Virus record (IMG/VR): IMGVR_UViG_3300029893_000003
Span: 9,110-73,109 of that record
Direction: 5' to 3' (one strand)
Length of the DNA stretch: 64,000 nucleotides
From: a virus
The translations under genes and the position numbers were made by a program. Shown here piece after piece: positions 17,439-59,533 of this stretch (the first letter of the stretch is position 1; each line of letters begins with the position of its first letter). The notes beneath the pieces were generated by a model. It did not search any database and was not told where the DNA came from. It worked only from the letters and a program-made list of their open reading frames with translations.

Positions 17439-18171
17439 GAACTTCTACCTTACTAAATGTATATGGGCTTTCTGCTTCATGATCTAAACAAACAACACAA
17501 TTTTCCGCCGAAGGATTTACGTTCCAATAAACGTAATAATTATCCTCATCTTCATCTACTTCCAACCAGCATTTGCACAACGATTTTCCAAGACAGTCGT
17601 CACCTGGGAGATAAGGCATCATAAAAGTAATATCGACAGGAATAGTGCCCGCTATAAACGGTGCTCTGGCATACCCATACAGAGAAGAACGCCACTGTAG
17701 ACGACCACTATAAATTACTCCGCTAGACAACGCCTCACGAATGTCTGCCTCAAATCCATCGAAGTATTCATATTCCCTCTCTAAACGCTGTTCTAAGATT
17801 TCCCTGTGCCGTTCAGTAAATTCCTCTCCTTGCAAACCCAACAGCATAAGATCAGAAAAATGGATACGCAGACGATCTCTAAACCGCTCCGAAAATTCCC
17901 TTATTGATAAGGCTCCCGACAAAACAGCGACCAGCAATTCCTGAAATTCTTGGGATGCCTCTTCACAAAGTTCTTCGTATTCCTGTTCGTCCCGCTCATC
18001 ATACTGCTTCTTTCCTTTACCAGCAGCATGTATGCACGCGAAAATAGCCTCTTCTTCAGACCCGCCATCTCTCAAAACCGCATTAGCGGCTCTGATACAA
18101 CGTTTCTTTTCTGAGACTGTCCAATTCTTAGCAACTTTTGGCACGTAATTGGGATAACGATAGGGACTCAT
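17422..18171 (-). CDS. Head morphogenesis/minor capsid protein with a ChaB/YdaT-like N-terminal domain
   Basis: N-terminal 'KNWTVSEKKRCIRAANAVLRDGGSEEEAIFAC'; C-terminal YWNVNPSAENCVVC and C..CKC, like Mu gpF-type proteins; follows the portal. Confidence 0.55.
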   Translation of the reverse strand: MSPYRYPNYVPKVAKNWTVSEKKRCIRAANAVLRDGGSEEEAIFACIHAAGKGKKQYDERDEQEYEELCEEASQEFQELLVAVLSGALSIREFSERFRDRLRIHFSDLMLLGLQGEEFTERHREILEQRLEREYEYFDGFEADIREALSSGVIYSGRLQWRSSLYGYARAPFIAGTIPVDITFMMPYLPGDDCLGKSLCKCWLEVDEDEDNYYVYWNVNPSAENCVVCLDHEAESPYTFSKVEVHGLTT

Positions 18172-25638: not shown

Positions 25639-26088
25639 CTATAGGTTTTTATTATCCAGACGTTCCCTAACGACCCGCGAGACTTCCCTACGAACTACAG
25701 CATCAACCACATCAACATCAACCTCTGGCTTTGTAGGAATTACTTCCTGATAACGGGTTCCGCTCGGTGGTCGTTCAGTCCATGAGTCGATGACTTTCAT
25801 TGCAACTAGCAACGAGATGATCCAAGGGACCAGCGTTTCCATCAAAAGCGCAATAGCAGCACCATCATCACCAGCAAGCTCACGGATACGAGCAAGAGTT
25901 TCCTCTTCTACTCCAAACACGCCTAGCAAAGACAAGATCACCACCGATGCCCCCGCCCAAAAGCGACGGTCAATCAAAACAGACCCTAGTTTGTTAATAA
26001 AAATCGTCAAACGTTCTTTCGTACTCATTTCTCTACTCCAAAGCTCTGTACAATAATCGAAAATCGTTCTAGTTGATCCATTAACCAA
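25639..26088 (-). CDS. Holin-like membrane protein
   Basis: Two hydrophobic helices (DRRFWAGASVVILSLL; VPWIISLLVAM). Confidence 0.5.
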   Translation of the reverse strand: MVNGSTRTIFDYCTELWSREMSTKERLTIFINKLGSVLIDRRFWAGASVVILSLLGVFGVEEETLARIRELAGDDGAAIALLMETLVPWIISLLVAMKVIDSWTERPPSGTRYQEVIPTKPEVDVDVVDAVVRREVSRVVRERLDNKNL

Positions 26089-26442: not shown

Positions 26443-27681
26443 GTGACTGCTCCCCACGGCTAAAGCCGGGGGCTTCTAGGACCGGAGTCCAGGCTCGCCA
26501 GCCCGCGAGCCAAAATGTTCAGAGATGCATTGAGATCGCGGTCCAGTTTCAGGCCGCAGTAAGGACAGTCGTGGACACGCACACTCAAGTCTTTCGGAAC
26601 CACCGCGCCGCAGCCGGAGCATTCTTGCGTTGTGCCTCTGGGGTTAACGCGCAGCACAGCACGACCGGCACTTTCAGCCTTGTACGTGGTGAACTGCACG
26701 AACTGGCCCCAGGCCACGTCCGCGATATTCCGGTTGACAACCCGGTTTCCGTTGGACTGCATGTCCGCGATGTCCAACTTCTCAAAGACGATCAGGCCGA
26801 AGCGGTTGACGAGCTTGCGGCTCTCCTGGTGCGCGAAGTCGGCGCGCCGGTTGGTGGCGCGCTGGTAGGCATGGTTGAGCGCGCGCAGCACCTTGCGGCG
26901 CTCCGGCGAGCCTTTAGCGAACTGTTCTTTCTTGCGCTGCAAGCGGGCGATGTCCGCCGCATCGCGTTTCATCCAGCACTGGCGCGGGATACTGTCGCCG
27001 GTACTCAGCATGGCGAACGTCTTCAGGCCGAGATCCACGCCCACCACTTCAGGCGACGGGGGCAGAGGCGCGGCGTCTACTTCGCACGAAAAGCAGGCGT
27101 ACCAGTTGCCTACGCTATCGCGCCGGATGATGACTGTTTTGGGTGTGCCTTCCAGGGGGCGATGCAGCTTGATTTTCACGGCTCCGATTTTCGAGAGCGT
27201 GAGCCGGTTACCGTCCAACTTCACCCCATTACCACACTGCGGATAGGTGAAACTGTCGTACCAGCCACGTCCCTTGAAGCGCGGGTAGCCGGGCTTCTCA
27301 CCTGCCTTGACGCGGCGAAAGAATGCCTGGAACGCCAGATCGACGCGTGTGCACGCTTCTTGAAGCGACTGCGAAAAGGCGTTATTGAGAAATGGCTGCT
27401 CGGCTTTCCAGCCGGGGATCAGCTTAATCGTATCGAAGCGCGTCAGCGTTTCGCGGTTAATGTCCCAGGCATCGCGGCGCACTTCAAGCGTCGTGTTGTA
27501 AACCCACCGACAAGCATCCAATGCGCGCAGCAAGGCGGTGCGTTGGGCAGAAGTAGGAAAGAGGCGGTACTTGTAGGTCAATCGCATAGCCCGATTATAC
27601 CATTTATGCTACAGGTTCACAAACATATGGCGCACCTTATATCCCCCTGCCTTCAGGCAGAGGTTTTACGGCGCTTTTCCG
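26443..27681 (-). mobile_element. IS200/IS605-family (IS1341-type, tnpB-only) element 1
   Basis: LE hairpin CCTCTGCCTGAAGGCAGGGGG after TTTAT; RE GAAGCCCCCGGCTTTAGCCGTGGGGAGCAGTCAC; higher GC than flanks; no tnpA. Confidence 0.85.
26460..27587 (-). CDS. tnpB: RNA-guided endonuclease TnpB
   Basis: YKYRLFPT HTH, VGVDLGLK RuvC-I, VFEKL, TTQECSGCG zinc finger, DRDLNASLNI. Confidence 0.95.
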   Translation of the reverse strand: MRLTYKYRLFPTSAQRTALLRALDACRWVYNTTLEVRRDAWDINRETLTRFDTIKLIPGWKAEQPFLNNAFSQSLQEACTRVDLAFQAFFRRVKAGEKPGYPRFKGRGWYDSFTYPQCGNGVKLDGNRLTLSKIGAVKIKLHRPLEGTPKTVIIRRDSVGNWYACFSCEVDAAPLPPSPEVVGVDLGLKTFAMLSTGDSIPRQCWMKRDAADIARLQRKKEQFAKGSPERRKVLRALNHAYQRATNRRADFAHQESRKLVNRFGLIVFEKLDIADMQSNGNRVVNRNIADVAWGQFVQFTTYKAESAGRAVLRVNPRGTTQECSGCGAVVPKDLSVRVHDCPYCGLKLDRDLNASLNILARGLASLDSGPRSPRL

Positions 27682-41185: not shown

Positions 41186-42789
41186 AGCTAAAGCGGGGAG
41201 CTTCCCAGGGCACGCTCGCCGCAACCGGCCACGTTACGCTCTGGCGGCCCCGTCCGGGCCGGGTTGACCGCAAGCATCAGGATATTCCGAGGTTACACTG
41301 CCCATCACCGCGATCCATCCGTTGCAACAGCATCGCCGTTCTGAGCTTCGCGGGACACGTTTGACCCACTGGCCTGCGTTTCGTCCCGCGCGCCCGGTAC
41401 AGGCGCTTTCAACCCTAAGCGAAGGATGTTCTTCGCTGCGTTCACGTCGGCGTTTTCTTCATGCCCGCACGAAAGACACCGGAACCGCGCTTGTGTTTTA
41501 CGATTTTCGGCGTCCACTACGCCGCACTCGGAGCACGTTTGACTCGTGTACGCTGGCGGCACCTTGACCAACTGGACGCCGCGCTCGGCACACTTGTATT
41601 CGAGCAGTTGCCAGAAGGTCGCAAAGCCGGCATCGTGCGCGCTCATGGCGAGACGCTTGTTTTCGATCATGAAGTCCAGCGTCAGATCTTCGATGGCGAT
41701 CAGCCCGTAGGTGCTCGTGAGCCAGTCGGTGACGGTGTGCCAGAAATACCACCGCTGTTGTCTGATTCGGTCCTCCAGCTTGCGCAACTGGCGCTCGGTT
41801 TCCTGCATGCGCGTGGACTTGTGCCAGATGAACACGCCGGGTTTGGGCGTGCCGTCCGCATTGTAGTTCTGCGGGTTGTTGGCGCGGCGCTGGCGGTCCA
41901 GCTTGCGCATAAGCACGCGGCGCTTCTGCTGCCCTTCCCGATACCAGCGCGGGTTATCAATGGTCGTGCCGTCGCTGAGCGCCAGCAGGTAGACCATGCC
42001 CACGTCAATGCCAACGGCGGGCTTCTGTGAAGGTTCCGGCTCGGCGTCGGGTATTTCAAGCTGGAGGGCGGCGTACCACTGGCCGCGCCGGTTGCGCAGC
42101 ACGAGCACGTACTTGATGACGCTCAGGGGCGGCAGATCGCGGTGAAAGCGCAGACGGATGTCACCACAGTTGGCGATGCGCAGCTTAGCCCACCCGTCCG
42201 ACGTTTCGATGAGTTTGCACCCACTACCGTACTTGTAACCCAGGCTGCGGAAGTGGTAGCGCCCCTTGAAGCGCGGGAAGCCCGGTGTTTCGCCCGCCTT
42301 GACGCGGCGGAAGAACGCTTTATAGGCTTTGTCCAGGCGGCGCATAAGGTCATCTACCGTGTCATAGGGCAGCAGCCCGAACGTGTCCGGTTCCTCTTTG
42401 CGCAGTGCGCACCAGTGATCACGCAGGTCATACAGGCTGATGCTCTCGCCGCGTTCCTCATACGCTTCCTTGCGCATGGCGAGGGCACCGTTGTAGATTT
42501 TGCGCCCCTGCCACAGCAGGAAGTCGAACGTCCGCGCTTGCGCCCTCGTCGGATACAGCCGGTACTTGTACGTCCGAATCATCGCCGCCCCAGAACAGAA
42601 CACCCCGCCGAAGATTGTGTGTTGTCTAGGCACACGCGCGCGGCAGGGTGTTCCGTCCACAATCATAACGCACGTATCATGCCTAGACAACATTAGTATA
42701 CCGCACATTCGTTCGCAAAGCAAAATCAGAAAGGAGGCAAGCGCCATTCCCAACCGGGCTAAAACCCGGTGTCCCCTGGCGCAATTTCG
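41166..42789 (-). mobile_element. IS200/IS605-family tnpB-only element 2 inserted in the ardC 3' end
   Basis: LE CGAAATTGCGCCAGGGGACACCGGG after CCAT; RE GAAGCTCCCCGC...GCGGGGAGAGTCGTCAC; excision restores the ardC frame. Confidence 0.85.
41305..42582 (-). CDS. tnpB: RNA-guided endonuclease TnpB
   Basis: MIRTYKYRLYP, VGIDVGM, IAIEDL, YTSQTCSECG, NADVNAAKNI. Confidence 0.95.
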   Translation of the reverse strand: MIRTYKYRLYPTRAQARTFDFLLWQGRKIYNGALAMRKEAYEERGESISLYDLRDHWCALRKEEPDTFGLLPYDTVDDLMRRLDKAYKAFFRRVKAGETPGFPRFKGRYHFRSLGYKYGSGCKLIETSDGWAKLRIANCGDIRLRFHRDLPPLSVIKYVLVLRNRRGQWYAALQLEIPDAEPEPSQKPAVGIDVGMVYLLALSDGTTIDNPRWYREGQQKRRVLMRKLDRQRRANNPQNYNADGTPKPGVFIWHKSTRMQETERQLRKLEDRIRQQRWYFWHTVTDWLTSTYGLIAIEDLTLDFMIENKRLAMSAHDAGFATFWQLLEYKCAERGVQLVKVPPAYTSQTCSECGVVDAENRKTQARFRCLSCGHEENADVNAAKNILRLGLKAPVPGARDETQASGSNVSREAQNGDAVATDGSR

Positions 42790-50067: not shown

Positions 50068-50218
50068 GAATCAGAAAAACCTGCGCGGAAGCCCCCACCT
50101 AAGGGCGCGGGGAGTGTCACGCCTAGACAGCATCAGCATACCATACATTCAATCAGCAGAAGGAGGCAAGCGCCATTCCCTGCCGGGTTAAAGCCCGGTG
50201 TCCCCTGGCGCAATTTCT
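50068..50218. mobile_element. Nested IS200/IS605 end scars: plus-strand right end (to 50120) abutting a minus-strand left end of the element-2 family (50121-50218)
   Basis: GAAGCCCCCACCTAAGGGCGCGGGGAGTGTCAC; 50121-50222 is homologous to 42681-42793 including the CCAT motif. Confidence 0.7.
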
Positions 50219-50389
50219 ATGGAACGCATATTAGAAGTGGATCGTAAATGGAAGGAACGAAACGAGCGTATTCTAATGAGGAATGGACCGACTGCATTAG
50301 ATGAGTATCTAAGGCAGGAAGCGAGGCGTATAGAATCTTTGCGTAGGGAAATGGAAAAGCGTGGGCTTGAGGTTGATCAAGTCACTTGA
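50219..50389 (+). CDS. Small hypothetical protein (MERILEVDRK...)
   Basis: ATG coincides with the IS target motif. Confidence 0.5.
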   Translation: MERILEVDRKWKERNERILMRNGPTALDEYLRQEARRIESLRREMEKRGLEVDQVT

Positions 50390-50414
50390 CAATTAGTTAG
50401 TCTTGTGGTATGCT
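50386..50414 (+). promoter_or_regulatory. Sigma70 promoter
   Basis: TTGACA-17-TATGCT with extended -10 TG. Confidence 0.75.
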
Positions 50415-50452
50415 GGTCTAAGATAGGCCAGCATTTTTATTAGGAGAATGTT

Positions 50453-50599
50453 ATGAAAACCCTACTCGAATGGGTGTTAGGCATTTCTGTATGTTCGGTA
50501 ATTCTGTATGCTGGCTACGAGAATCCAAATAGTTATGTAATGTTGGGAATGGTTGTGACTGTGGTGGTGTCCAGTCTTTTGCTTACCAAACGGGCCTGA
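50453..50599 (+). CDS. Small membrane protein (48 aa), stop codon overlapping the mini-tmRNA 5' end
   Basis: AGGAG RBS; MKTLLEWVLGISVCSVILYAG...LLLTKRA*. Confidence 0.55.
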   Translation: MKTLLEWVLGISVCSVILYAGYENPNSYVMLGMVVTVVVSSLLLTKRA

Positions 50600-50679
50600 C
50601 AGGTTTCGATGGCGGGGAGTCTTGCAGTTGGGTGTTAGGCTCCCCGCTAGACCTACGTTCAATTCGTAGCAGGTCCACC
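50592..50679 (+). ncRNA. tmRNA-like RNA consisting only of the tRNA-like domain (no mRNA-like domain)
   Basis: Acceptor GGGCCTG/CAGGTCC with G3.U70 and A73; D-loop-like ACAGGTTTCGA; helix TGGCGGGGAG/CTCCCCGCTA; GAC linker; T-arm CTACG-TTCAATT-CGTAG. Confidence 0.75.
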
Positions 50680-50819
50680 CGTATCCTTATCAGTAAGGAG
50701 AGATGCAGAAGAAGATACCCGTACTGCGATGCGGGGTAAGCTGATTGACATCTTACAGGCAGCGCGAGAACACGGCTATGTCGTGGCTGTGGGTGGCGCT
50801 AAGTTCTAAGGAGAGCAGC

Positions 50820-51089
50820 ATGGTAATCGTCATGGTAATGAAGGGAAAGCCCGTACAGTATTTCTTGTATGAAGATCAGGGCGCAGCCGAAGATTGGGTA
50901 CGGGATAGAAAACGTGCCCTATTAGGGACACTGGTAGAGGATTGGTTGATCCCTACAGACTATGAAATCTGGAAGAAACGGGGTGATTTTCTTTTCCTTA
51001 CTGATAAGGAAGTTGATGAATTGTGGCCTCGGTTTGGTAAGTATTTCTCAGAAGACTTTATCATTCAGACAGCGGAGATTGTAGGATAG
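50820..51089 (+). CDS. Hypothetical protein
   Basis: AAGGAG RBS before 50820. Confidence 0.6.
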   Translation: MVIVMVMKGKPVQYFLYEDQGAAEDWVRDRKRALLGTLVEDWLIPTDYEIWKKRGDFLFLTDKEVDELWPRFGKYFSEDFIIQTAEIVG

Positions 51090-51090
51090 G

Positions 51091-51441
51091 ATGCAAATAA
51101 AAATTGTGCGGGTTGGTGCAGAGCCGTGTACTATTGAGGCACAAGTGAAGGGAGACTTTGCCTATCATCGAACTTACATTGAGGGTAAGGGAACCAGCCA
51201 TCGACAACACGACTGGTCAGTAACCTATGTTCCTAGTGGTCGCCTAGTTTTTCGTACAAAAACAAAGGCAGCGGCAAAGACTCTTGTAGATATGTTACAG
51301 CCTCTAGAATTACAAGATATTTTCACAGAGGATGAGGTACTCAAGAACGAAATTCGTTTACAGTTTTATAACATCATGAACGAGGCGCGAAAGAAGTTCC
51401 CTGTCGCGTTGGGTAGTGGTCCTTTTTATCCTGCTAAATAA
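51091..51441 (+). CDS. Hypothetical protein
   Basis: Coupled ORF. Confidence 0.65.
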   Translation: MQIKIVRVGAEPCTIEAQVKGDFAYHRTYIEGKGTSHRQHDWSVTYVPSGRLVFRTKTKAAAKTLVDMLQPLELQDIFTEDEVLKNEIRLQFYNIMNEARKKFPVALGSGPFYPAK

Positions 51442-51607: not shown

Positions 51608-52161
51608 TGAGTAAACTACTTGATCCTCAAGAGTTTTGGGAGTCTATTCGTAGTGAAGAGAGTGCAGCGTGGCCTGTTGTGTGTGTTGATTTGAATGGTG
51701 TGTTGGATATTCCCTCTCGTTGGAACGGGAAGGTAGAAAAGTATCCAGTTGCACCAGGGGCCTCGCTGTTTCTTTCCCGGTTGCGTCTTCATTTTAATAC
51801 GGTCGTTGTATTTACAGCTATTATGCCTGTTGAATTTGCTATAGAGTGGTTAGAAGAACACGATTTACTAAAGTATGTGCATTTCGTTACTAACTACAAA
51901 ATTCCCGCTGCTGTATATATTGACGACAAAGCCGTTTGTCATTACGGAAATTTTGATGATACGCTACAGCGTGCTATTCGTCATGTTCCGCATTGGCAAA
52001 ATCATAAACGCTTAGAGCGACCACAAGAGGTAGAACAATTTATTTCTATCTACGACAAAAAATCCCAAATCACTGGTGGGCATAACGTTTTAGAGTTTGC
52101 TGTTGTTCAGTACATTAGACAGCTAGAGGGAAAATTACATGACTTGGAGAGCGGTATATGA
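51607..52161 (+). CDS. HAD-superfamily hydrolase (5'-nucleotidase-like; motif I variant DLNG)
   Basis: VCVDLNGVL, VFTA, KIPAAVYIDDKA. Confidence 0.75.
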   Translation: MSKLLDPQEFWESIRSEESAAWPVVCVDLNGVLDIPSRWNGKVEKYPVAPGASLFLSRLRLHFNTVVVFTAIMPVEFAIEWLEEHDLLKYVHFVTNYKIPAAVYIDDKAVCHYGNFDDTLQRAIRHVPHWQNHKRLERPQEVEQFISIYDKKSQITGGHNVLEFAVVQYIRQLEGKLHDLESGI

Positions 52162-52738
52162 CAAGATTGGCTGTTTAGAAGAAGACGAATTACTATGGAA
52201 ACTAATCCTACATGAAAAGGATCGGTTTATGTGTACACTGGCACAAGCGTCGGATTTGTTGGAAGGGGAGCGGTATCTCGATCATACAGCACATGCAAAG
52301 GCTATGATGTATGCTGTTAATGAGGGGGAACAAGGAAAGCCACTAACTTTGTACACGGTGCTTAGAATACACCAACTTGCCTTTCCGTATGGTGGTCACT
52401 TTAGGAATTGTACTCCCATTATCTTTAATAGTTCCTTTGAGCCACCTGCCCCACCTATCGCTCCCCATGTACAGGATTGGATCAAACGCTATTGGGATGA
52501 TCCCCTTGCAAATGCAGACATAGAGTATTATGATATAGTTTTAGCACATATTCGGTTTGAAGAAATCCACCCGTTTGTAGACGGGAACGGTCGGGTGGGA
52601 CGGATTCTGAACAACTACATGTGCGCGTATGCGGGGCTTCCTTTGTTGAATATCTGTGATAGAGAAGCCTATCTAGACTGTATGCGTCGTGGGCATATAC
52701 AAGATTTAGTCCAGCTTTTTAGAAGGAGTGCGGTATGA
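52139..52738 (+). CDS. Fic/Doc family protein
   Basis: Canonical HPFVDGNGRVGR motif. Confidence 0.9.
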   Translation: MTWRAVYDKIGCLEEDELLWKLILHEKDRFMCTLAQASDLLEGERYLDHTAHAKAMMYAVNEGEQGKPLTLYTVLRIHQLAFPYGGHFRNCTPIIFNSSFEPPAPPIAPHVQDWIKRYWDDPLANADIEYYDIVLAHIRFEEIHPFVDGNGRVGRILNNYMCAYAGLPLLNICDREAYLDCMRRGHIQDLVQLFRRSAV

Positions 52739-53037: not shown

Positions 53038-53335
53038 TGTGAGTGATTTTCTTTACTACTTATTACTTATTTTAGACTTCCTTATGCCAAAACGAACTGA
53101 CAACTACCAGGAATATCTACGATCTTCTAGGTGGAGAGGCATAAGGAAAAGGGCCTTGGAACGGGCGGGTTATCGGTGTCAGCTATGTAACTCGCCCACC
53201 AGACTACAGGTACACCATCGGACGTATGATCGACTAGGAAATGAACGGCTTGATGATCTTATTGTGCTGTGTCAAAAATGTCATACAGCGTTTCATGTAC
53301 ACAGGAAATTGCACAAACCTAGAAAAAGGGCTTGA
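53030..53335 (+). CDS. HNH endonuclease
   Basis: YLRSSRW...CQLC...LQVHH...LIVLCQKCHTAFH. Confidence 0.85.
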   Translation: MNSVSDFLYYLLLILDFLMPKRTDNYQEYLRSSRWRGIRKRALERAGYRCQLCNSPTRLQVHHRTYDRLGNERLDDLIVLCQKCHTAFHVHRKLHKPRKRA

Positions 53336-53360
53336 CAAAGGTTTTGAGGTATGCTATACT
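53332..53360 (+). promoter_or_regulatory. Sigma70 promoter for the ~350-nt ncRNA
   Basis: TTGACA-17-TATACT with extended -10 TG. Confidence 0.85.
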
Positions 53361-53367
53361 GTGTACA

Positions 53368-53716
53368 GTGAGACAGAAAGCTGCGTGGGTGGCGGCTAGG
53401 AAACCTTCAGTCGAATTGAGACGAGTTTTATTGTTAGTCCTTAATGCCGCCACCGACGAAGTTGAAGGGCTTGAAGTAGAGGCAACCAAACATTCATAGC
53501 GTACACTCTCCTTTTGGTTAGCCGATGAGAAAACTTTATCCTTAAAGGTTGCCTCTACTTCAAGCCTTTGCGACGGGCTTTGACCTAGACAATAGGAGTC
53601 CCCCTTTGTGCAGAGGGGAGTGCCGTAGGAGCGCAGGTAAAGGTTGCACAGCCATCCTACCTCTTGATGGTGGGCAGGAGTAAATATAATTTCATACTTA
53701 TATCCCACCTTTTTTT
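53368..53716 (+). ncRNA. Candidate structured RNA with two pseudoknots, class unassigned
   Basis: Bounded by the promoter and a GGTGGG/CCCACC-U8 terminator; stems GGTGGCGGC/GCCGCCACC and a ~23-bp stem around GGCTTGAAGTAGAGGCAACC; pseudoknot candidates TATTGT/ACAATA and TGTGCA/TGCACA. Confidence 0.65.
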
Positions 53717-53718
53717 TC

Positions 53719-53747
53719 TTGACAAGTTAAATGAAGTGTGTTAAAGT
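53719..53747 (+). promoter_or_regulatory. Sigma70 promoter for the Y RNA-Ro60 operon
   Basis: TTGACA-17-TAAAGT with extended -10 TG. Confidence 0.75.
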
Positions 53748-53749
53748 AA

Positions 53750-53818
53750 GGCTAGCGAACCGAAAAGGCGTGGTTATCCATGATCGAATACTCCACCCTT
53801 GTTTACTTGTTCGCTAAA
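53750..53818 (+). ncRNA. Y RNA-like RNA 1
   Basis: TAGCGAAC-CGA...CTT-GTTCGCTA, matching the Ro60-binding stem geometry (C-CGA / CUU-G) of Y RNAs. Confidence 0.7.
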
Positions 53819-53822
53819 ACAT

Positions 53823-53905
53823 GCGTGTCCAGGACTGGCAGGCGTTGGCCCTAAGCGAAGTTCAAGCCAACATCACCTGCGGGGGTTCAACTCCCTCGAC
53901 ACGCT
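53823..53905 (+). ncRNA. Atypical tRNA-like element (acceptor and T-arm, rudimentary D region, elongated anticodon-position arm)
   Basis: GCGTGTC/GACACGC acceptor; GGGGG-TTCAACT-CCCTC T-arm; GCAGG/CCTGC plus GTTGGC/GCCAAC arm. Confidence 0.6.
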
Positions 53906-53906
53906 C

Positions 53907-53979
53907 TATCGAGCCGAGGGGTTCAGGGTTACCTACATAGCGAATGTAAACCAATTCCCTACCCGCACCTTGCTCGATA
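53907..53979 (+). ncRNA. Y RNA-like RNA 2
   Basis: TATCGAGC-CGA...CTT-GCTCGATA stem with the same motif. Confidence 0.7.
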
Positions 53980-53992
53980 AAAACTAGTAATG

Positions 53993-54114
53993 ATGTGAGC
54001 CGAAGGAACTTGGTTATCGACTTGTAATCGACGGTTGCGGGTTCGAATCCCGTCCCTGCGGGGTAGCTTAATGTGGAAAAGCAGTAAAAAGCCAATTCCG
54101 TCCCTTGCTCACGT
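53993..54114 (+). ncRNA. yrlA: YrlA-type Y RNA with a permuted tRNA-like module
   Basis: GTGAGC-CGA...CTT-GCTCAC Ro stem enclosing TCGA-CTTGTAA-TCGA arm, T-arm GCGGG-TTCGAAT-CCCGT, loop-closed acceptor CCC-TGC-GGG and D-arm-like TAGCTTAATGTGGAAAAGC; adjacent to the Ro60 gene. Confidence 0.8.
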
Positions 54115-54227
54115 AATGTATGGACCGTTTTTGTCCGACTAGATAGGCGAGATAACAGAGTGGTTGGTTCCTGTTATTACTATCTGTGTCGGGCACATCG
54201 TCCGACACTTTTCATAAGGAGAATCTA

Positions 54228-55793
54228 ATGGATTACGGAAAGTATTTTAACACCCGCAAGACCCCTCAGAGCCAACCCCTTCCCAATCAAGTGCAGAATA
54301 ACGCTGGTGGTTATTCTTTTCAGGTCGATAAGTGGATGTTGCTGGATCGCTTCCTGATCCTGGGTACAGAGGGTGGATCGTATTACGTGGGGGAACAAGC
54401 TCTCACCGTTGAAAATGCGCGCGCTGCCTACGAATGTATTCAGGAAGACGGTATTCGTGTTGTGGATCGCGTAGTAGAAATTTCTGTTCAGGGACGTGCA
54501 GCTAAGAATGATCCTGCTCTTTATGTTCTAGCTATGGCAGCAGGGACAGGTAATCTAGCCACGCGACGGTACGCTTTATCATATCTTTCTGAGGTAGCGC
54601 GTACTGGAACACATCTATTTACCTTTGTTGATTACGTGCAGCAGTTTCGTGGGTGGGGTCGTGCCCTGAAAAATGCAGTTGGTAACTGGTATCTGGATCG
54701 CCCGATTGAGAAGTTGGCGTATCAGGCTATCAAGTACCGCAACCGTAAGGGCTGGACTCACGCTGATGTGTTGCGTAAGGCACATCCAAAAGCCCACAAC
54801 CAGCTTCAAAATGATCTGTTCAAGTGGATTGTAGATGGTGACGTGCCTAGTATCCAACTGGTACGGGCATTTGAGGCCGCTAAGACCGCTTCGGAAGATG
54901 ATCTTGTAGCTTTGATTGCACAGTATGATCTTCCTCGCGAAGCCTTGCCTACTGAAGCCCTGAACAGCCCGAAGGTATGGCGTTCTTTGTTGGTTCACAT
55001 GCCGTTGATGGCCCTGGTTCGTAACCTGGGTAAGCTGAGTAATGTTGGCGTGGTCGCTCCTGGTCGTTGGGTGGAAATTGAACACACGGTTGGGATGCTG
55101 ACAAACCGCCAAAAAATTCAGCAGTCTCGTATTCACCCTATTCAGGTACTTGCTGCGCTGACTACCTATTCTCAGGGACGGGGCGTACGTGGCAGTTTAA
55201 CGTGGGATGTGGTACCGGAGATTGTTGCAGCACTAAACACAACCTATGAAATGGCGTTTGATAACGTAGAGCCGAGCGGAAAAAAGACACTGGTCGCGTT
55301 GGACGTGTCCTCGTCAATGACATGGGGCGAAGTGTCTGGTGTTCCGGGCTTGACTCCGCGTGTGGCGGCGGCTGCAATGGCAATGATGACCATCAAGACC
55401 GAACCATATACCCTGCCGTTGGCGTTTTCTACTGAGCCTACGCCGATGAATCTGAATAAGTCTATGTCGCTGAATGAAGTAATCCGTGAGATGGAGCGTA
55501 TTCGGTTTGGTGGTACGGATTGCGCCTTGCCGATGCTATGGGCACTAGAGAACAAGGCTGAAGTTGATCTATTTGTGGTGTATACAGATAGCGAAACGTG
55601 GTACGGAAAGATTCATCCTGTTCAGGCATTGCAAATGTATCGTGAGCAGATGGGCATTCCCGCAAAGTTGGCTGTTGTAGGGATGCTGGCAAATAAGTTT
55701 TCGATTGCCGATCCGAACGATCCTGGTATGCTAGATTTTGTGGGCTTTGATACATCTGTTCCACAGGCACTAGCCGAATTTGCTAAGATGTAG
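54228..55793 (+). CDS. rsr: Ro60/Rsr TROVE-domain RNA-binding protein with vWA domain
   Basis: NNAGGYSF, LDRFLILGTEGGSYY, KYRNRKGWTHADVLRKAHP, MPLMALVRNLGKL, MIDAS DVSSSM, GGTDCALPM, YTDSETW, DPNDPGMLDFVGFD. Confidence 0.95.
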   Translation: MDYGKYFNTRKTPQSQPLPNQVQNNAGGYSFQVDKWMLLDRFLILGTEGGSYYVGEQALTVENARAAYECIQEDGIRVVDRVVEISVQGRAAKNDPALYVLAMAAGTGNLATRRYALSYLSEVARTGTHLFTFVDYVQQFRGWGRALKNAVGNWYLDRPIEKLAYQAIKYRNRKGWTHADVLRKAHPKAHNQLQNDLFKWIVDGDVPSIQLVRAFEAAKTASEDDLVALIAQYDLPREALPTEALNSPKVWRSLLVHMPLMALVRNLGKLSNVGVVAPGRWVEIEHTVGMLTNRQKIQQSRIHPIQVLAALTTYSQGRGVRGSLTWDVVPEIVAALNTTYEMAFDNVEPSGKKTLVALDVSSSMTWGEVSGVPGLTPRVAAAAMAMMTIKTEPYTLPLAFSTEPTPMNLNKSMSLNEVIREMERIRFGGTDCALPMLWALENKAEVDLFVVYTDSETWYGKIHPVQALQMYREQMGIPAKLAVVGMLANKFSIADPNDPGMLDFVGFDTSVPQALAEFAKM

Positions 55794-55818: not shown

Positions 55819-55891
55819 GGGACTGTAGCTCAGCGGTTAGAGCAACCGGCTCATAACCGGTCGGTCACAGGTTCGAATCCTGTCAGTCCCA
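55819..55891 (+). tRNA. tRNA with CAT anticodon (probably Ile2/lysidine type; elongator Met not excluded); CCA not encoded
   Basis: GGGACTG/CAGTCCC acceptor; D-arm GCTCAGCGGTTAGAGC; anticodon arm ACCGG-CTCATAA-CCGGT; T-arm ACAGG-TTCGAAT-CCTGT. Confidence 0.9.
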
Positions 55892-56479: not shown

Positions 56480-59400
56480 ATGCCTGAGCCTACACAAGAA
56501 CAAGTTTCTATTATCAACTTCCCTGCTGATGAACATCTAGCTGTTGAAGCGGTCCCAGGTAGTGGGAAGTGTCTGGGTAAGGATACCCCCGTTATGTTAT
56601 TTGATGGGACGGTTAGAGCGGTACAAGATATAGTACCCGGCGATTTGTTAATGGGACCAGACTCAAAGCCTCGCACTGTTTTGTCTACTTCCGTAGGGTA
56701 TGGAAATTTGTACAAAATTGTACCTACCAAGGGAGATGCGTGGATATGTAATGAAGAACATATCTTAACATTGGTCTATTCGGGAAAGGAAGAAGTTGAA
56801 GACGTATCTCTGTCAGAGTATTTTACTAGGTCAAGAGCATATCGTGAAAGGGCTAAGCTGTTCCGTGTTCCTGTGGACTTTCCTAAAAAAGAACTTCCTG
56901 TTGATCCTTACTTGTTGGGAGTTTGGTTAGGGGATGGACATAGAGACAACCCAATAATCACTAATAAAGAACCTATTATACAAGAGTATTGCGTAGCAAA
57001 GGCTAATGAGCTAGGAATATCTGCTATTGTAGTAGATGCTCCTGAAATAAATAGCCAATATATTTATCTAACAAACAACTACAAAGGAAATCCGTTACGC
57101 AAATTTTTTGCTTCTTGTGTTACTGATGATGGAGAAAAATTTATCCCGCAGGACTATCTTACCAGCAGCAGAGAAGATCGTTTAGATTTGTTGGCAGCCC
57201 TATTAGATACAGATGGATATTATAATGGTGGGTCCTTTGAAATTACTACCAAATATAACACCCTGAAAGACAACATATTGTTTCTAGCCAGAAGTTTGGG
57301 CTTTGCTGCCTATGCAAAACGCAAAGTAGCTGCTATCAAATCTCTAGACTTTTCAGGAGAATATTGGAGAATATCAATTAGTGGGGATGTAAGTATTATT
57401 CCCAATAAGATTCCTCGTAAACAAGCGTTTCCGCGACGACAGATTAAAAATGTGTTGCGTACAGGGTTTTCTGTGGAAGGCATAGGGAAAGGAGCATATT
57501 ACGGATTTACACTAGATGGTGATGGCAGGTTTTTGTTGGGTGACTTTACTGTAACTCACAATACGTTTACCATTGCCTACCGAGTAAAGGCTTTCTTGGA
57601 TCAGGGGGTTGATCCTGCTAATATTCTGGTGTGTACGTTCTCTCGCTCACAGGCAGAAGATATGTCTCTCCGTATTCTATCCTTCCTAAAGCAGCACTAC
57701 CCTACTATCGGCCTATCTGCTTTAGCGAATGGGTTTGGCGAGGGCATAGGACAGATTACGACCATCCACGCTACAGCTAGACGTATGCTAATCCACTATC
57801 CCGAATACACTAAGTATTCAGAACTACAAGTTGCTCCTACATGGAAAGAGCGTAGCATTATTGAAAACTTTGTGGAAAGAATTAACTGGACGTACTACAA
57901 TGTCCGAGAGAAAAAAGAAGCTCTCGTTGGCTATCAGTCAATTTTATTCTACATTAACAACGCTAAAAATGCGGGTGTCAATCTTAATGTAGCAGAACTG
58001 ACTGAATACTACCTTAGTACGGGATTGGGTAGAGAACACGTTCGTAACTTGGTGTCTACCACCCTGCACTACCAACAAGAACTACAACGCAACAATATGT
58101 GGACGTTTGCTGATATGCTGTATGAGTGCGAGAAGCAGCTTCGAGAGGATGCGGCTTTCCGTTCGTACTGGCATGATCGGTTTACTCATGTGTTGATTGA
58201 CGAAGCACAGGACACTAATGGACAGGCTATGCGAATTGTCCATCTCCTTAATCCTAGTAGTATTACTGTGGTGGGAGACGCTGATCAAACGTTGTACGCT
58301 TTCAATGGAGCAACACCAGATACCAACCTGCGTACAGGTTTTGATCAGCGGTTTGGCGGCGGTCGTCTTTCTATGTCAGTTAATTTCCGTAGCCAACCTA
58401 ACATCCTGAAACGAGCAGGGCTTCTTATTCGTCATAACTATGACAGTGAAACGATCAAATATATGAAAAACCTACAGCCACGCGAGGGTGTAGCTGTTGG
58501 AGATGATGTAACCTTTTCGTGGTATCAAGACGCCGAAGAAGAGGCGCGAGGAGTTGTTGCTAATCTTGTTCAATACATGGAAGAAGGGCATGTCCCTGGT
58601 GACTTCTTTATCATGTCGCGCACAAACGCGCAGATGGCGTACTTTGAACTAGAACTTTTAAACCACAATCTGCCCTTTGTGAACTTGGGCGTATCTAGTT
58701 TCTTTAACCGTCCGGTGCCGCGTATGCTGCTTAACTACATGCGGCTGGCTGTTGATCCGACTGATTGGGAAGCTTTTGATATTGTCCACAACGTAGCTTC
58801 TTGTTGGATGACTAACAACCAAGGCAAACCAATCAACACACGGTTCTTAGGACAGAAATTCCTAGAGAGACTTTCCCGCACCAATGGCGATGGAACCCCT
58901 ACAAACTCTCTGGAAGAGGCGTATGCCCATAAATACGATACTGATCAACGTGGGTGGACACGCTGGCAGAGGGGTGTTCAGGACTTGCAGGATACTATGC
59001 AGGCTCTTGCTGGATATGAAATGTCGCACAACGCAGGATCGTTGGCCTCTGAGATTACACGGATTGTAGTAGATAAGTGGATTGAAAACGAGTTTGGTGT
59101 TGAAACAGACGCTTCTGACGGTGCGCGGGATGATCTTCAGGTGGTGTTGGCGTTGGCTAAACGGTTTACAGTGCGTGATTTTCTTGAGTATGTGCGCCAG
59201 CTAACCGCTACTAAAGACATTAAGCCAGAGAATATGACGGACTATATTCTAATTGGCACAATCTATAAGTTTAAGGGTTTGGAGCGTCCGATAGTTTACG
59301 TGGTTGGTGCCAGTCAGGGCCTACTACCACACCGTTTCAGTTTGGGGGAAACCCCCCCGACCGATGGCTTGCCCATTCCCTCTACCGGAAGTTTGTGGGA

Positions 59401-59533
59401 TGAGCGGAACGTCATGTATGTGGCAGTAACCCGCGCTAAAGACGTATGCCACATTTCGGGTATTCAGAACTGGGCAACTATCAAAGACCCGCTTGAGCCT
59501 TCTATCTTCGTACAGGAAATGGAGTTGTTGTAA
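56480..59533 (+). CDS. UvrD/PcrA-like SF1 helicase interrupted by an intein
   Basis: AVPGSGK|TFT Walker A, LIDEAQD, VGDADQTLYAFNGA, NFRSQ, TIYKFKGLE, ERNVMYVAVTRAK. Confidence 0.9.
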   Translation: MPEPTQEQVSIINFPADEHLAVEAVPGSGKCLGKDTPVMLFDGTVRAVQDIVPGDLLMGPDSKPRTVLSTSVGYGNLYKIVPTKGDAWICNEEHILTLVYSGKEEVEDVSLSEYFTRSRAYRERAKLFRVPVDFPKKELPVDPYLLGVWLGDGHRDNPIITNKEPIIQEYCVAKANELGISAIVVDAPEINSQYIYLTNNYKGNPLRKFFASCVTDDGEKFIPQDYLTSSREDRLDLLAALLDTDGYYNGGSFEITTKYNTLKDNILFLARSLGFAAYAKRKVAAIKSLDFSGEYWRISISGDVSIIPNKIPRKQAFPRRQIKNVLRTGFSVEGIGKGAYYGFTLDGDGRFLLGDFTVTHNTFTIAYRVKAFLDQGVDPANILVCTFSRSQAEDMSLRILSFLKQHYPTIGLSALANGFGEGIGQITTIHATARRMLIHYPEYTKYSELQVAPTWKERSIIENFVERINWTYYNVREKKEALVGYQSILFYINNAKNAGVNLNVAELTEYYLSTGLGREHVRNLVSTTLHYQQELQRNNMWTFADMLYECEKQLREDAAFRSYWHDRFTHVLIDEAQDTNGQAMRIVHLLNPSSITVVGDADQTLYAFNGATPDTNLRTGFDQRFGGGRLSMSVNFRSQPNILKRAGLLIRHNYDSETIKYMKNLQPREGVAVGDDVTFSWYQDAEEEARGVVANLVQYMEEGHVPGDFFIMSRTNAQMAYFELELLNHNLPFVNLGVSSFFNRPVPRMLLNYMRLAVDPTDWEAFDIVHNVASCWMTNNQGKPINTRFLGQKFLERLSRTNGDGTPTNSLEEAYAHKYDTDQRGWTRWQRGVQDLQDTMQALAGYEMSHNAGSLASEITRIVVDKWIENEFGVETDASDGARDDLQVVLALAKRFTVRDFLEYVRQLTATKDIKPENMTDYILIGTIYKFKGLERPIVYVVGASQGLLPHRFSLGETPPTDGLPIPSTGSLWDERNVMYVAVTRAKDVCHISGIQNWATIKDPLEPSIFVQEMELL
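56570..57562 (+). mobile_element. Intein with LAGLIDADG endonuclease (331 aa) in the helicase P-loop
   Basis: Starts CLGKDTPV, ends VTHN followed by Thr+1; LGVWLGDG and LAALLDTDG motifs. Confidence 0.95.

What the first reader, a model, noticed from the sequence alone, without database searches (positions are those of the whole stretch)
50592..50679. Phage mini-tmRNA: tRNA-like domain only, with no tag-coding region
Seen: an 88-nt element with tmRNA hallmarks, namely a GGGCCTGA 5' end, a stemless D-loop ending TTTCGA, a G3.U70 wobble and A73 discriminator, a GAC linker before a canonical T-arm, and a long helix 2 closed after about 20 nt instead of enclosing pseudoknots and an MLD. Established: G3.U70 is the AlaRS identity element, the TLD is the SmpB-binding part of tmRNA, and MLD-less tmRNAs are known from jakobid mitochondria. 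Inference: this phage RNA could be alanylated and enter stalled ribosomes without tagging, or titrate SmpB, protecting phage proteins from trans-translation or rescuing ribosomes after anti-phage mRNA/tRNA cleavage. It lies downstream of a consensus promoter (50386-50414).
Basis: partly seen in the sequence, partly recalled or inferred. Interest (0 to 1): 0.85.

Follow-up and report, generated by a model that had tools for sequence, protein, structure and literature searches.

The report
Phage tag-less mini-tmRNA gene
This uncultured temperate phage carries a real 86-88-base gene for only the tRNA-like head of the bacterial ribosome-rescue RNA (tmRNA); this type is already known from mycobacteriophage DS6A, is common in phages, and probably interferes with the host's ribosome rescue and protein tagging.

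Summary
Window 50592-50679 (+) has a 7-bp acceptor stem with G3.U70, discriminator A73, a stemless D-loop ending GGTTTCGA, a 13-bp helix 2 closed by a 14-nt loop, a GAC linker and a canonical T-arm. It has no pseudoknots and no credible tag frame.

- **tmRNA origin:** its first 18 nt are identical to the 5' end of 12 ARAGORN-called full-length phage tmRNAs.
- **Family membership:** a covariance model built from 17 other tag-less elements, without this one, scores it 62.9 bits end to end. The published TLD-only tmRNA of mycobacteriophage DS6A scores 47.9, and the window's tRNA-Met 25.
- **Family:** 27 distinct members, with covariation in all three helices.
- **Selection:** relatives at 90-97% identity keep the element without indels, and both helix changes preserve pairing.
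- **Annotation:** ARAGORN and Rfam miss it.

It is therefore a new member of a known kind. Hudson 2014 and the 2025 tmRNA database paper cite Mao 2009 for such an RNA inhibiting tmRNA in E. coli, perhaps by titrating SmpB. This scan has already reported the type on other DNA (73 notes, at least 65 genomes).

Local particulars: the stop codon of a real 48-codon gene lies inside the RNA's 5' end; a Fic / Y RNA / Ro60 / tRNA-Met island lies nearby; the host is probably Chloroflexota.

The parts
50592..50679 (+). TLD-only (tag-less) mini-tmRNA gene. The mature RNA is probably 50592-50677 plus CCA; ACC is encoded and the terminal A is not.
   Evidence: Sequence; fold z = -4.7; model R1 built without it scores 62.9 bits, rough E 2.5e-12, full length; first 18 nt identical to 12 full-length phage tmRNAs.
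50592..50598 (+). Acceptor stem 5' strand GGGCCTG, with G3 at 50594. It pairs with 50670-50676 (CAGGTCC, U70 at 50674).
   Evidence: Direct reading. G1-C72, G2-C71, G3.U70 and G7-C66 are invariant in 17 family members, and positions 4-6 covary.
50599..50609 (+). Stemless D-loop ACAGGTTTCGA.
   Evidence: GG and TTCGA are invariant in alignment A3. The same string is found in full-length tmRNAs.
50610..50649 (+). Helix 2: arms 50610-50622 and 50637-50649, loop 50623-50636. It takes the place of the pseudoknots and the tag frame.
   Evidence: Fold. In relatives, 50611 G>A turns G.U into A-U and 50645 C>T turns G-C into G.U. All 5 basal pairs covary across the family.
50650..50669 (+). GAC linker and T-arm (stem CTACG/CGTAG, loop TTCAATT).
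   Evidence: Direct reading. All 5 T-stem pairs covary in the family.
50677..50679 (+). Discriminator A73 followed by CC. The next base is C here and T in relatives.
   Evidence: The full tmRNAs and several tRNAs of a Chloroflexia MAG also lack an encoded CCA.
50386..50414 (+). Sigma-70-type promoter with extended -10, driving orf48, the mini-tmRNA and the downstream genes.
   Evidence: 10 of 12, TG present. Consensus match only; not shown to be active.
50453..50599 (+). orf48, a small hydrophobic protein. Its last 8 nt, including the TGA stop, are nt 1-8 of the mini-tmRNA.
   Evidence: AGGAG ribosome-binding site 8 nt upstream. 8 of 9 substitutions in relatives fall on third codon positions (binomial p about 0.001, my arithmetic). 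Weak DUF6358 match.
52139..52738 (+). Context: Fic/DOC family protein.
   Evidence: Pfam PF02661, E 1.5e-12. A 30%-identical homologue lies 4.5 kb from the mini-tmRNA of a Chloroflexia MAG contig.
54033..54082 (+). Context: tRNA-like core of a YrlA-type Y RNA. The whole RNA is about 53993-54114.
   Evidence: Rfam RF02553, 33 bits, E 4e-5, below the gathering score of 69. Fold shows a closing stem with a bulge.
54186..55793 (+). Context: Ro60/Rsr orthologue.
   Evidence: Pfam TROVE E 5e-38 and Ro60 vWA E 4e-67. 37-46% identical to the Ro-like proteins of the listed phage records, out of 359 matching records, mostly actinophages.
55819..55891 (+). Context: tRNA-Met (CAT).
   Evidence: ARAGORN; Rfam tRNA 76.7 bits.

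Best explanation
The element is a functional phage gene for a tag-less tmRNA made of the tRNA-like domain plus a closed helix 2. It belongs to the same family as the 'TLD only' tmRNA of mycobacteriophage DS6A.

Inferred steps:
1. It is transcribed from the promoter at 50386-50414 together with orf48 and the downstream genes.
2. It is cut out by host tRNA-processing enzymes: RNase P at G50592, 3' trimming, and completion of CCA.
3. It binds host SmpB. The phage has no smpB.
4. It is probably charged by AlaRS, given G3.U70 and A73.
5. With no resume codon or stop codon, it cannot complete trans-translation. Its net effect is to compete with host tmRNA for SmpB, and probably for EF-Tu and stalled ribosomes. 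This lowers ssrA tagging and proteolysis of phage proteins made from truncated or cleaved messages.

Shown here: the gene is real, it is under selection, and it belongs to the family. Taken from the literature: a similar TLD-only RNA strongly inhibits tmRNA in E. coli whether or not it can be charged. Inferred: everything about expression, processing and the benefit to this phage.
For: - **tmRNA-type ends.** The 18-nt 5' end occurs in 15 viral loci. In 12 of them ARAGORN calls a 292-434-nt tmRNA with a tag starting exactly there. Their 3' ends have the same (G)GAC, T-arm, CAGGTCC-A layout.
- **Family.** Gapped pattern scans found tag-less forms in 5 further distinct viral loci with the same acceptor and in 27 of 32 loci with GGGG acceptors. 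Those 27 have perfect acceptor and T-arm pairing, which the pattern did not require. Others are in Microbacterium phage WaterT and a Chloroflexia MAG. I located the DS6A element at JN698994 28478-28557.
- **Covariation** on 17 members, window excluded: 95% of cells paired, score 0.726 against 0.195 in shuffles (0 of 500), and 13 of 17 pairs with double changes. That includes all 5 pairs of helix 2, which was never a search criterion.
- **Model test.** The model built without the window scores it 62.9 bits, DS6A 47.9 and tRNA-Met 25.
- **Selection.** Relatives at 90-97% identity show no indel in the element. Three positions inside the element vary across the runs: two in helix 2, both structure-preserving, and one in the D-loop. 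The longest RNA contig carries 2 changes in 88 nt, against 8 in the 100 nt upstream.
- **Not by chance.** The descriptor hits once in the genome and 0 times in 200 shuffles.
- **No phage SmpB**.
Against: - No direct evidence of expression, ends, charging or SmpB binding for this RNA.
- Metatranscriptome contigs from two studies cover it, but contigs cannot show transcription, strand or ends.
- ARAGORN and Rfam (tmRNA and mt-tmRNA models) do not detect it, even at E <= 10.
- CCA is not fully encoded.
- The inhibition experiment was done in E. coli. PMC11915505 attributes it to the DS6A form and PMC4131195 to a similar molecule; I could not read the primary paper (Mao 2009).
- The benefit to a phage of blocking trans-translation is not established.
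- Acceptor and T-arm pairing were part of my own filter for the family set, so only helix 2 and the raw-hit pairing rate are unbiased.
Confidence: 0.75

Rival explanations
1. Tag-less rescuer rather than inhibitor. The RNA is alanylated, enters stalled ribosomes with SmpB and EF-Tu, and accepts the nascent chain. The peptidyl-RNA is then released by drop-off with peptidyl-tRNA hydrolase or by an ArfB-type factor. Ribosomes are freed and phage proteins gain one Ala instead of a degradation tag. This overlaps with the best explanation; the two differ in which effect matters.
For: G3.U70, A73 and G1-C72 are invariant in all 17 aligned members while neighbouring acceptor pairs covary. That suggests selection for charging and not only for SmpB binding. 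CDS-less tmRNAs persist with SmpB in mitochondria and some plastids (PMC11915505). From my own knowledge: isolated TLD RNAs accept peptidyl transfer in vitro with SmpB.
Against: According to PMC4131195, inhibition by a similar molecule did not need chargeability. No release route after transfer is known for such an RNA. The phage encodes no ArfB- or Pth-like factor that I noticed, though I did not search for one.
Confidence: 0.3
2. Processing punctuation. The tRNA-like shape mainly serves as an RNase P / RNase Z cleavage signal. It cuts the polycistronic transcript and removes the stop codon of orf48, so it regulates orf48 and the downstream genes. The released RNA would be a by-product.
For: The orf48 stop codon lies at nt 6-8 of the element, and orf48 evolves as a real coding gene. 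A second tRNA-like spacer sits in the Y RNA array at 53823-53907.
Against: Punctuation needs only an acceptor and T-arm. It does not explain the invariant tmRNA-specific D-loop (GG, TTCGA) or the G3.U70 kept across 27 elements in unrelated contexts. In other members the upstream ORF ends before G1.
Confidence: 0.1
3. A decaying relic of a once full-length phage tmRNA, or a leftover attachment-site fragment of the host ssrA gene.
For: The 5' end is identical to full-length phage tmRNAs, so descent from a full gene by internal deletion is very likely. The phage has a tyrosine integrase, and ssrA is a common integration site (PMC11915505).
Against: Both acceptor strands, the T-arm and a perfectly paired helix 2 are intact. 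Substitutions in relatives are compensatory or wobble-preserving, and there are no indels. The short form recurs in 27 distinct sequences with covariation. The integrase is 18 kb away (G000 77908 against 59701). Attachment-site copies carry only the 3' part of ssrA (my knowledge).
Confidence: 0.04
4. A miniature but complete tmRNA. The loop and 3' arm of helix 2 read GCA GUU GGG UGU UAG, which could be a resume codon, three codons and a stop.
For: GCA is the commonest resume codon (my knowledge). tmRNAs with 2-codon tags exist (PMC11915505).
Against: The frame sits in a 14-nt loop closed by a 13-bp helix and runs into the stem. There are no pseudoknots or spacer to let it reach the decoding centre. 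Other family members have unrelated interiors with no common frame. ARAGORN finds no tag. A GCN codon followed by a stop within 5 codons is easily chance.
Confidence: 0.03
5. A ligand of the neighbouring Ro60 protein, that is a Y-RNA-like molecule rather than a trans-translation factor.
For: Ro60 and at least one YrlA-type RNA lie 3.5 kb downstream. YrlA RNAs mimic tRNA.
Against: YrlA has its ends in the Ro-binding stem and a closed acceptor-like hairpin. This RNA has the opposite topology, and the YrlA model does not match it. Three of the four Ro60-encoding phage genomes searched whole (FuzzBuster, Forza, A3Wally, Comrade; WaterT's Ro60 status was not checked) have no clear match to the tag-less model, and the tblastn of window proteins found no Ro60 in any other mini-tmRNA locus.
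Confidence: 0.03

Closest known systems
'TLD only' tmRNA of Mycobacterium phage DS6A (tmRNA Website tmID 11587 / Phage__Mycobacterium.9; Mao et al. 2009 RNA Biol 6:355, cited in PMC4131195 and PMC11915505)
   Same: Phage-encoded, about 80-88 nt. Both have a 7-bp acceptor with G3.U70 and A73, a stemless D-loop, a short closed helix 2, a linker and a T-arm, with no tag frame. Both match my family model end to end (62.9 and 47.9 bits). Both phages are temperate (integrase). Neither element is annotated in its record.
   Different: The acceptor sequences differ (GGGCCTG against GGGGCCG). The DS6A D-loop is one nt longer and reads GGTGGTCGA. DS6A's helix 2 encloses a GAAAA-CC-hairpin relic, whereas the window has an uninterrupted 13-bp helix and a 14-nt loop. 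The host is probably Chloroflexota rather than Mycobacterium. Here a CDS stop codon overlaps the 5' end.
Full-length phage tmRNAs (cluster C mycobacteriophages such as Tonenili and HyRo; Gordonia phage Forza)
   Same: Identical first 18 nt and the same 3' layout. In Forza the tmRNA sits about 380 nt downstream of a Ro-like gene among tRNAs. The cluster C phage HyRo carries both a tmRNA and a Ro60, and ScottMcG carries Ro60 and is listed among phages with ssrA.
   Different: Those RNAs are 290-430 nt with pseudoknots and a tag reading frame. This one has neither.
CDS-less organellar tmRNAs (jakobid and oomycete mitochondria, RF02544; roughly 65-bp forms in Mallomonadaceae plastids)
   Same: A tRNA-like domain without a tag frame, retained together with SmpB (PMC11915505).
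   Different: They are mostly permuted two-piece genes of organelles. The Rfam mt-tmRNA model gives no match here at E <= 10. It is an independent reduction in a different setting.
YrlA-type Y RNAs (RF02553)
   Same: A tRNA-mimicking small RNA encoded by phages next to Ro60. One lies 3.4 kb downstream in this window.
   Different: The topology is permuted, with the ends in the Ro-binding stem. There is no G3.U70 open acceptor end. The model does not match the element.
tRNA-Ala
   Same: G3.U70, A73 and a canonical T-arm. Microbacterium phage A3Wally even has a tRNA-Ala(TGC) with the same GGGCCTG/CAGGTCC acceptor.
   Different: There is no D-stem and no anticodon arm. Rfam tRNA and ARAGORN do not call it.

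Membership tests
tmRNA tRNA-like domain | 7-bp acceptor stem with G3.U70 and discriminator A73 (AlaRS identity set) | tested here: met
   Direct reading. G1-C72, G2-C71 and G3.U70 are invariant in 17 relatives.
tmRNA tRNA-like domain | D-region without a stem, carrying GG...UUCGA | tested here: met
   50599-50609. The 18-nt 5' end is identical to 12 ARAGORN-called tmRNAs.
tmRNA tRNA-like domain | Helix 2 leaving directly after the D-loop and returning before a (G)GAC linker and a 5-bp T-arm with a 7-nt UUCRANN loop | tested here: met
   Covariation of helix 2 and the T-stem.
tmRNA tRNA-like domain | Match to the curated tmRNA models (Rfam RF00023 / ARAGORN) | tested here: not met
   No call by ARAGORN or Rfam at gathering or at E <= 10. 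These models expect the MLD and pseudoknots. A sister mini in a Chloroflexia MAG does reach 56 bits against a gathering score of 47.
tmRNA tRNA-like domain | Alanylation by AlaRS and binding of SmpB / EF-Tu | not testable with these tools
   Needs biochemistry.
Complete tmRNA (standard form) | mRNA-like domain with resume codon, tag frame and stop, plus pseudoknots | tested here: not met
   Only 40 nt lie between the D-loop and the linker, folded as one hairpin. ARAGORN finds no tag.
TLD-only (CDS-less) phage tmRNA, DS6A type | Full-length match to a structure-and-sequence model of tag-less phage elements built without the candidate | tested here: met
   R1 scores 62.9 bits, rough E 2.5e-12, positions 1-79 of 79. 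DS6A scores 47.9 bits and tRNA-Met 25 bits.
TLD-only (CDS-less) phage tmRNA, DS6A type | Short form maintained in relatives rather than a one-off deletion | tested here: met
   Relatives at 90-97% identity in 4 runs show no indels and only pairing-preserving helix changes.
TLD-only (CDS-less) phage tmRNA, DS6A type | Inhibition of host trans-translation | not testable with these tools
   Reported for the DS6A form (PMC11915505) or a similar molecule (PMC4131195) in E. coli, both citing Mao 2009. The primary paper is not held.
tRNA | D-stem and anticodon arm with a 7-nt loop | tested here: not met
   No Rfam tRNA or ARAGORN call. With relaxed ARAGORN settings only a forced tRNA-Pro misfit starting at nt 11 appears.
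YrlA / Y RNA | Ends paired in a Ro-binding stem, tRNA-like module closed at the acceptor | tested here: not met
   Opposite topology. No RF02553 match on the element, although the model finds 54033-54082.

The most novel reading that the evidence does not exclude
Maturation of the mini-tmRNA by RNase P would cut orf48's message two codons before its stop, so every processing event would make a non-stop orf48 mRNA. The tag-less RNA released in the same cut would then decide whether Orf48 is released untagged or is ssrA-tagged and destroyed. That would make a self-contained circuit coupling a phage membrane protein to the state of host ribosome rescue. It would sit inside a 5.5-kb island (mini-tmRNA, Fic, Y RNAs, Ro60, tRNA-Met) that works together against host RNA-cleaving defences in a Chloroflexota host. 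Outside this phage, CDS overlap with a tmRNA gene has been noted only for smpB in Carsonella (PMC4131195).
Probability: 0.1. Interest if true: 0.6.

Novelty: new member of a known kind. Interest (0 to 1): 0.35.

Why it matters
The tag-less tmRNA is a natural minimal SmpB/AlaRS ligand that phages have kept many times over, yet standard annotation (ARAGORN, Rfam) does not see it. This copy adds three things:
- a probable Chloroflexota-phage example
- an example linked to a Ro60 / Y RNA island
- a rare case where a real coding gene loses its stop codon when the RNA is processed

The main value is for annotation, and as one more candidate for testing what phages gain by disabling or bypassing trans-translation. 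It is not a new kind of element.

Tried and rejected
- **Standard detectors.** ARAGORN on the window and the whole genome finds only tRNA-Met. Rfam at gathering score and at E <= 10 on 50400-50850 gives nothing relevant. RF00023 on the phage's own genome gives only two T-arm-like fragments, in the Y RNA region.
- **Cultured relatives.** BLAST of 2.5 kb around the element against cultured phages, near and distant modes, found no match.
- **More distant syntenic relatives.** Searches with the SH3-domain protein and with Ro60 in viral contigs found none. Synteny beyond about 90% identity could not be examined.
- **Primary paper.** Mao et al. 2009 is not held.
- **Linkage to Ro60.** The family model run on the four Ro60-bearing phage genomes (FuzzBuster, Forza, A3Wally, Comrade) gave hits only at tRNA level. 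WaterT, whose Ro60 status was not checked, has a clear mini. No systematic mini-tmRNA and Ro60 linkage is shown.
- **Weak hit.** A 27-bit hit upstream of Ro in Streptomyces phage Comrade does not form an acceptor stem.
- **Host from the 18-mer.** It occurs in only 32 of about 185,000 species genomes, scattered over many phyla. That gives no host signal.
- **Expression.** Metatranscriptome contigs cover the element, but contigs cannot prove transcription, strand or ends.
- **Contig artefacts.** An RNA contig that diverges upstream of 50599, and a snap-back end at 50699, look like assembly effects at hairpins.
- **My own errors.** The first DS6A scan with a strict D-loop motif missed the element, and a slicing error spoiled the DS6A fold. 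The fold stands.

Full report
**What is there**

- A 7-bp acceptor stem, 50592-50598 with 50670-50676, carries a G.U pair at position 3:70.
- A50677 is the discriminator. It is followed by CC and then C, so CCA is not fully encoded.
- The 11-nt D-region has no stem and ends GGTTTCGA.
- A 13-bp helix (50610-50622 with 50637-50649) is closed by a 14-nt loop.
- A GAC linker follows, then a T-arm of 5 bp with loop TTCAATT.

The RNA folds at -44.2 kcal/mol, z = -4.7, and none of 200 shuffles folds as well. A descriptor demanding these features hits once in the 82-kb genome and never in 200 shuffled genomes. The promoter-like site at 50386-50414 is present. The window is part of an 82-kb IMG/VR virus record, estimated 95% complete, with 45% G+C.

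**Standard tools miss it**

ARAGORN finds only tRNA-Met at 55819-55891. Rfam gives no tmRNA, mt-tmRNA or tRNA match on the element, even at E <= 10.

**It derives from tmRNA**

The first 18 nt occur exactly in 15 viral contigs. In 12 of them ARAGORN calls a 292-434-nt tmRNA with a tag peptide that starts exactly at that string. Cultured examples are the cluster C mycobacteriophages Tonenili and HyRo. The 3' ends of those tmRNAs have the same layout as here: (G)GAC, T-arm, CAGGTCC, A. One of the 15 loci, L004, is a second short form.

**It belongs to a family of tag-less forms**

- A gapped pattern with the same acceptor found 5 distinct short elements in viral contigs and one in a Chloroflexia MAG.
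- A pattern for GGGG-type acceptors demanded no base pairing and returned 32 loci. 27 of them have a perfect 7-bp acceptor with G3.U70 and a perfect T-stem.
- Microbacterium phage WaterT and three sister phages carry an unannotated 99-nt version next to a tRNA-Leu.
- In total there are 26 distinct elements plus DS6A.
- All have helix 2 starting one nt after TTCGA and ending before a 3-4-nt linker. Their interiors are unrelated.

On an alignment of 17 members that excludes the window, 95% of cells pair. The covariation score is 0.726 against 0.195 in shuffles (0 of 500) and at most 0.144 in slid controls. 13 of 17 pairs show double changes. Acceptor and T-arm pairing were part of my filter, so the unbiased evidence is narrower. 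It consists of helix 2, where all 5 pairs covary, and the 27 of 32 raw hits with full pairing.

A covariance model built from these 17 scores the window element 62.9 bits (rough E 2.5e-12) over its full length. It scores held-out members 54-68 bits, DS6A 47.9, WaterT 35.8 and the window's tRNA-Met 25.

**Prior art**

Hudson, Lau and Williams 2014 list 'Mycobacterium phage DS6A (TLD only)'. [quoted passage not shown] 2009 (PMC4131195). The 2025 tmRNA database paper repeats this and adds roughly 65-bp CDS-less plastid forms and CDS-less mitochondrial forms (PMC11915505).

I located the DS6A element at JN698994 28478-28557. It is unannotated and lies between gp33 and gp34. I could not read the primary paper.

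This scan has already reported the type on other DNA: 73 notes in at least 65 genomes, all pointing to DS6A. My tests reach the same conclusion independently.

**It is not a relic**

The phage's DNA is held by runs from 11 studies, covering subsurface, rock, sludge, soil, wastewater and compost. Contigs of relatives at 90-97% identity, laid on 50100-51300, show no indel in the element.

Four substitutions fall in or next to it:
- 50600 C>A lies in the D-loop.
- 50611 G>A turns a G.U pair into A-U.
- 50645 C>T turns a G-C pair into G.U.
- 50680 C>T lies just outside the element.

The longest RNA-library contig has 2 changes in the 88 nt, 8 in the 100 nt upstream and at least 7 in the 116 nt downstream. 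One relative lacks 50697-50790 altogether.

The integrase is 18 kb away, so the element is not an attachment-site fragment.

**Local particulars**

1. *Overlap with orf48.* orf48 (50453-50599) has a good ribosome-binding site. 8 of 9 substitutions in relatives fall on third codon positions, so it is a real gene. Its stop codon TGA is nt 6-8 of the RNA. RNase P cleavage at G50592 would therefore leave a message without its last two codons and stop. Outside this phage, CDS-tmRNA overlap of this kind has been noted only for smpB in Carsonella (PMC4131195). In other family members the upstream ORF ends just before G1.
2. *Neighbourhood.* The element opens a 5.5-kb stretch. It holds a Fic/DOC protein, a long non-coding region with two more near-consensus promoters, a YrlA-type Y RNA (33 bits, below the gathering score), a Ro60 orthologue and tRNA-Met. 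Ro60 is found in 359 phage records, mostly actinophages. In Gordonia phage Forza a full tmRNA lies about 380 nt downstream of Ro among tRNAs. Of the four Ro60-bearing phages searched whole, none had a clear tag-less form, so no fixed linkage is shown.
3. *No phage SmpB or RtcB.* The phage encodes neither.
4. *Host.* The phage's TnpB-like transposase is up to 82% identical over its full length, and 85-87% over partial matches, to copies in Chloroflexota MAGs (Caldilineales, Anaerolineae, Chloroflexia), which dominate the 69 hits.
   - One Chloroflexia MAG contig holds a full tmRNA, a mini-tmRNA 25 kb away and a Fic homologue.
   - That MAG's own tmRNAs and several of its tRNAs also lack an encoded CCA. 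The missing terminal A is therefore no argument against function.

**Mechanism**

I take the RNA to be a competitor of host tmRNA. It would be processed like a tRNA, bound by host SmpB and probably alanylated, but it cannot resume translation. The result would be reduced ssrA tagging.

The invariance of G3.U70, A73 and G1-C72, next to covarying neighbours, hints that charging matters. That keeps the tag-less-rescue variant alive. These are inferences; only the gene's reality, its conservation and its family membership are shown here.

**Verdict**

The novelty is limited: it is a new member of a known kind. I put about 0.9 on the element being a genuine TLD-only tmRNA gene and about 0.55 on SmpB competition as its main mode of action. 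The stated 0.75 is a compromise between the two.

Noticed in passing
window 53330-54185 and 54186-55793: Ro60/Rsr orthologue (TROVE plus Ro60 vWA) preceded by about 850 nt of non-coding DNA with two near-consensus promoters. Rfam YrlA matches 54033-54082 (33 bits, below the gathering score).
   Followed up: partly
window 53823-53907: tRNA-like element with a perfect 7-bp acceptor (GCGTGTC/GACACGC) and a T-arm, but no normal D or anticodon arm. It gives only a weak tRNA-Sec-model hit (16 bits) and sits inside the Y RNA array. It may be a processing spacer.
   Followed up: partly
window 53465-53569: Inverted repeat with 23-nt arms, 96% complementary (the fold extends the stem to about 27 bp), enclosing 59 nt; z = -6.3. 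In relatives the same arms flank a different insert that resembles window 50166-50221 (loose ends).
   Followed up: partly
window 50161-50222: A compact hairpin-in-hairpin (GCGCCA...CCGGG-loop-CCCGG...TGGCGC) lies between an AGGAGG and the ATG at 50219. Contigs matching just this 56-nt piece have 5-30 times the depth of their neighbours in both DNA and RNA runs, and in relatives it again sits between a GGAGA and an ATG. No Rfam match. It may be a mobile or translational-control element.
   Followed up: partly
window 50684-50699 and 50995-51010: The same 16-nt hairpin sequence (TCCTTA-TCAG-TAAGGA) occurs twice in opposite orientation. The first copy lies 5 nt after the mini-tmRNA and overlaps a Shine-Dalgarno-like AAGGAG. 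One relative lacks 50697-50790.
   Followed up: no
window 20716-23469, 18168-20729, 56480-59533: Intein or homing-endonuclease insertions: the large terminase carries extra domains, an 853-aa protein has a LAGLIDADG domain, and the UvrD-type helicase has Hint plus Hom_end domains.
   Followed up: no
window 26460-27587 and 41305-42753 (both -): Two TnpB/IS605-type transposase genes. The first is up to 82% identical over its full length, and 85-87% over partial matches, to copies in Chloroflexota MAGs, which is the best host clue.
   Followed up: partly
L027 2427-2525 (Microbacterium phage WaterT MN096357, about 42293-42391, minus strand): Unannotated 99-nt tag-less tmRNA-like gene next to tRNA-Leu in a cultured phage, with matching T-arm and acceptor hits in LeeroyJenkins, Cassita and BarnCat. 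It has the same acceptor as the window, but its D-loop reads GGTATGG.
   Followed up: partly
L026 / G001 contig C43 (Chloroflexia MAG JBBQZS010000043.1): One contig holds a full tmRNA (742-1109), a 76-nt mini-tmRNA (25995-26073; RF00023 56 bits, above the gathering score) and a Fic homologue. This is probably a prophage near ssrA.
   Followed up: partly
L106 (Microbacterium phage A3Wally MZ150783 102331-102402): A phage tRNA-Ala(TGC) with exactly the GGGCCTG/CAGGTCC acceptor stem of the mini-tmRNA. This acceptor looks typical of phage-borne Ala-type RNAs rather than of host tmRNAs.
   Followed up: no
L024 28478-28557 (DS6A JN698994) and L025 301-1503: The published DS6A TLD-only tmRNA is not annotated in the GenBank record. 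The same phage encodes an RtcB-like RNA ligase (gp76).
   Followed up: no
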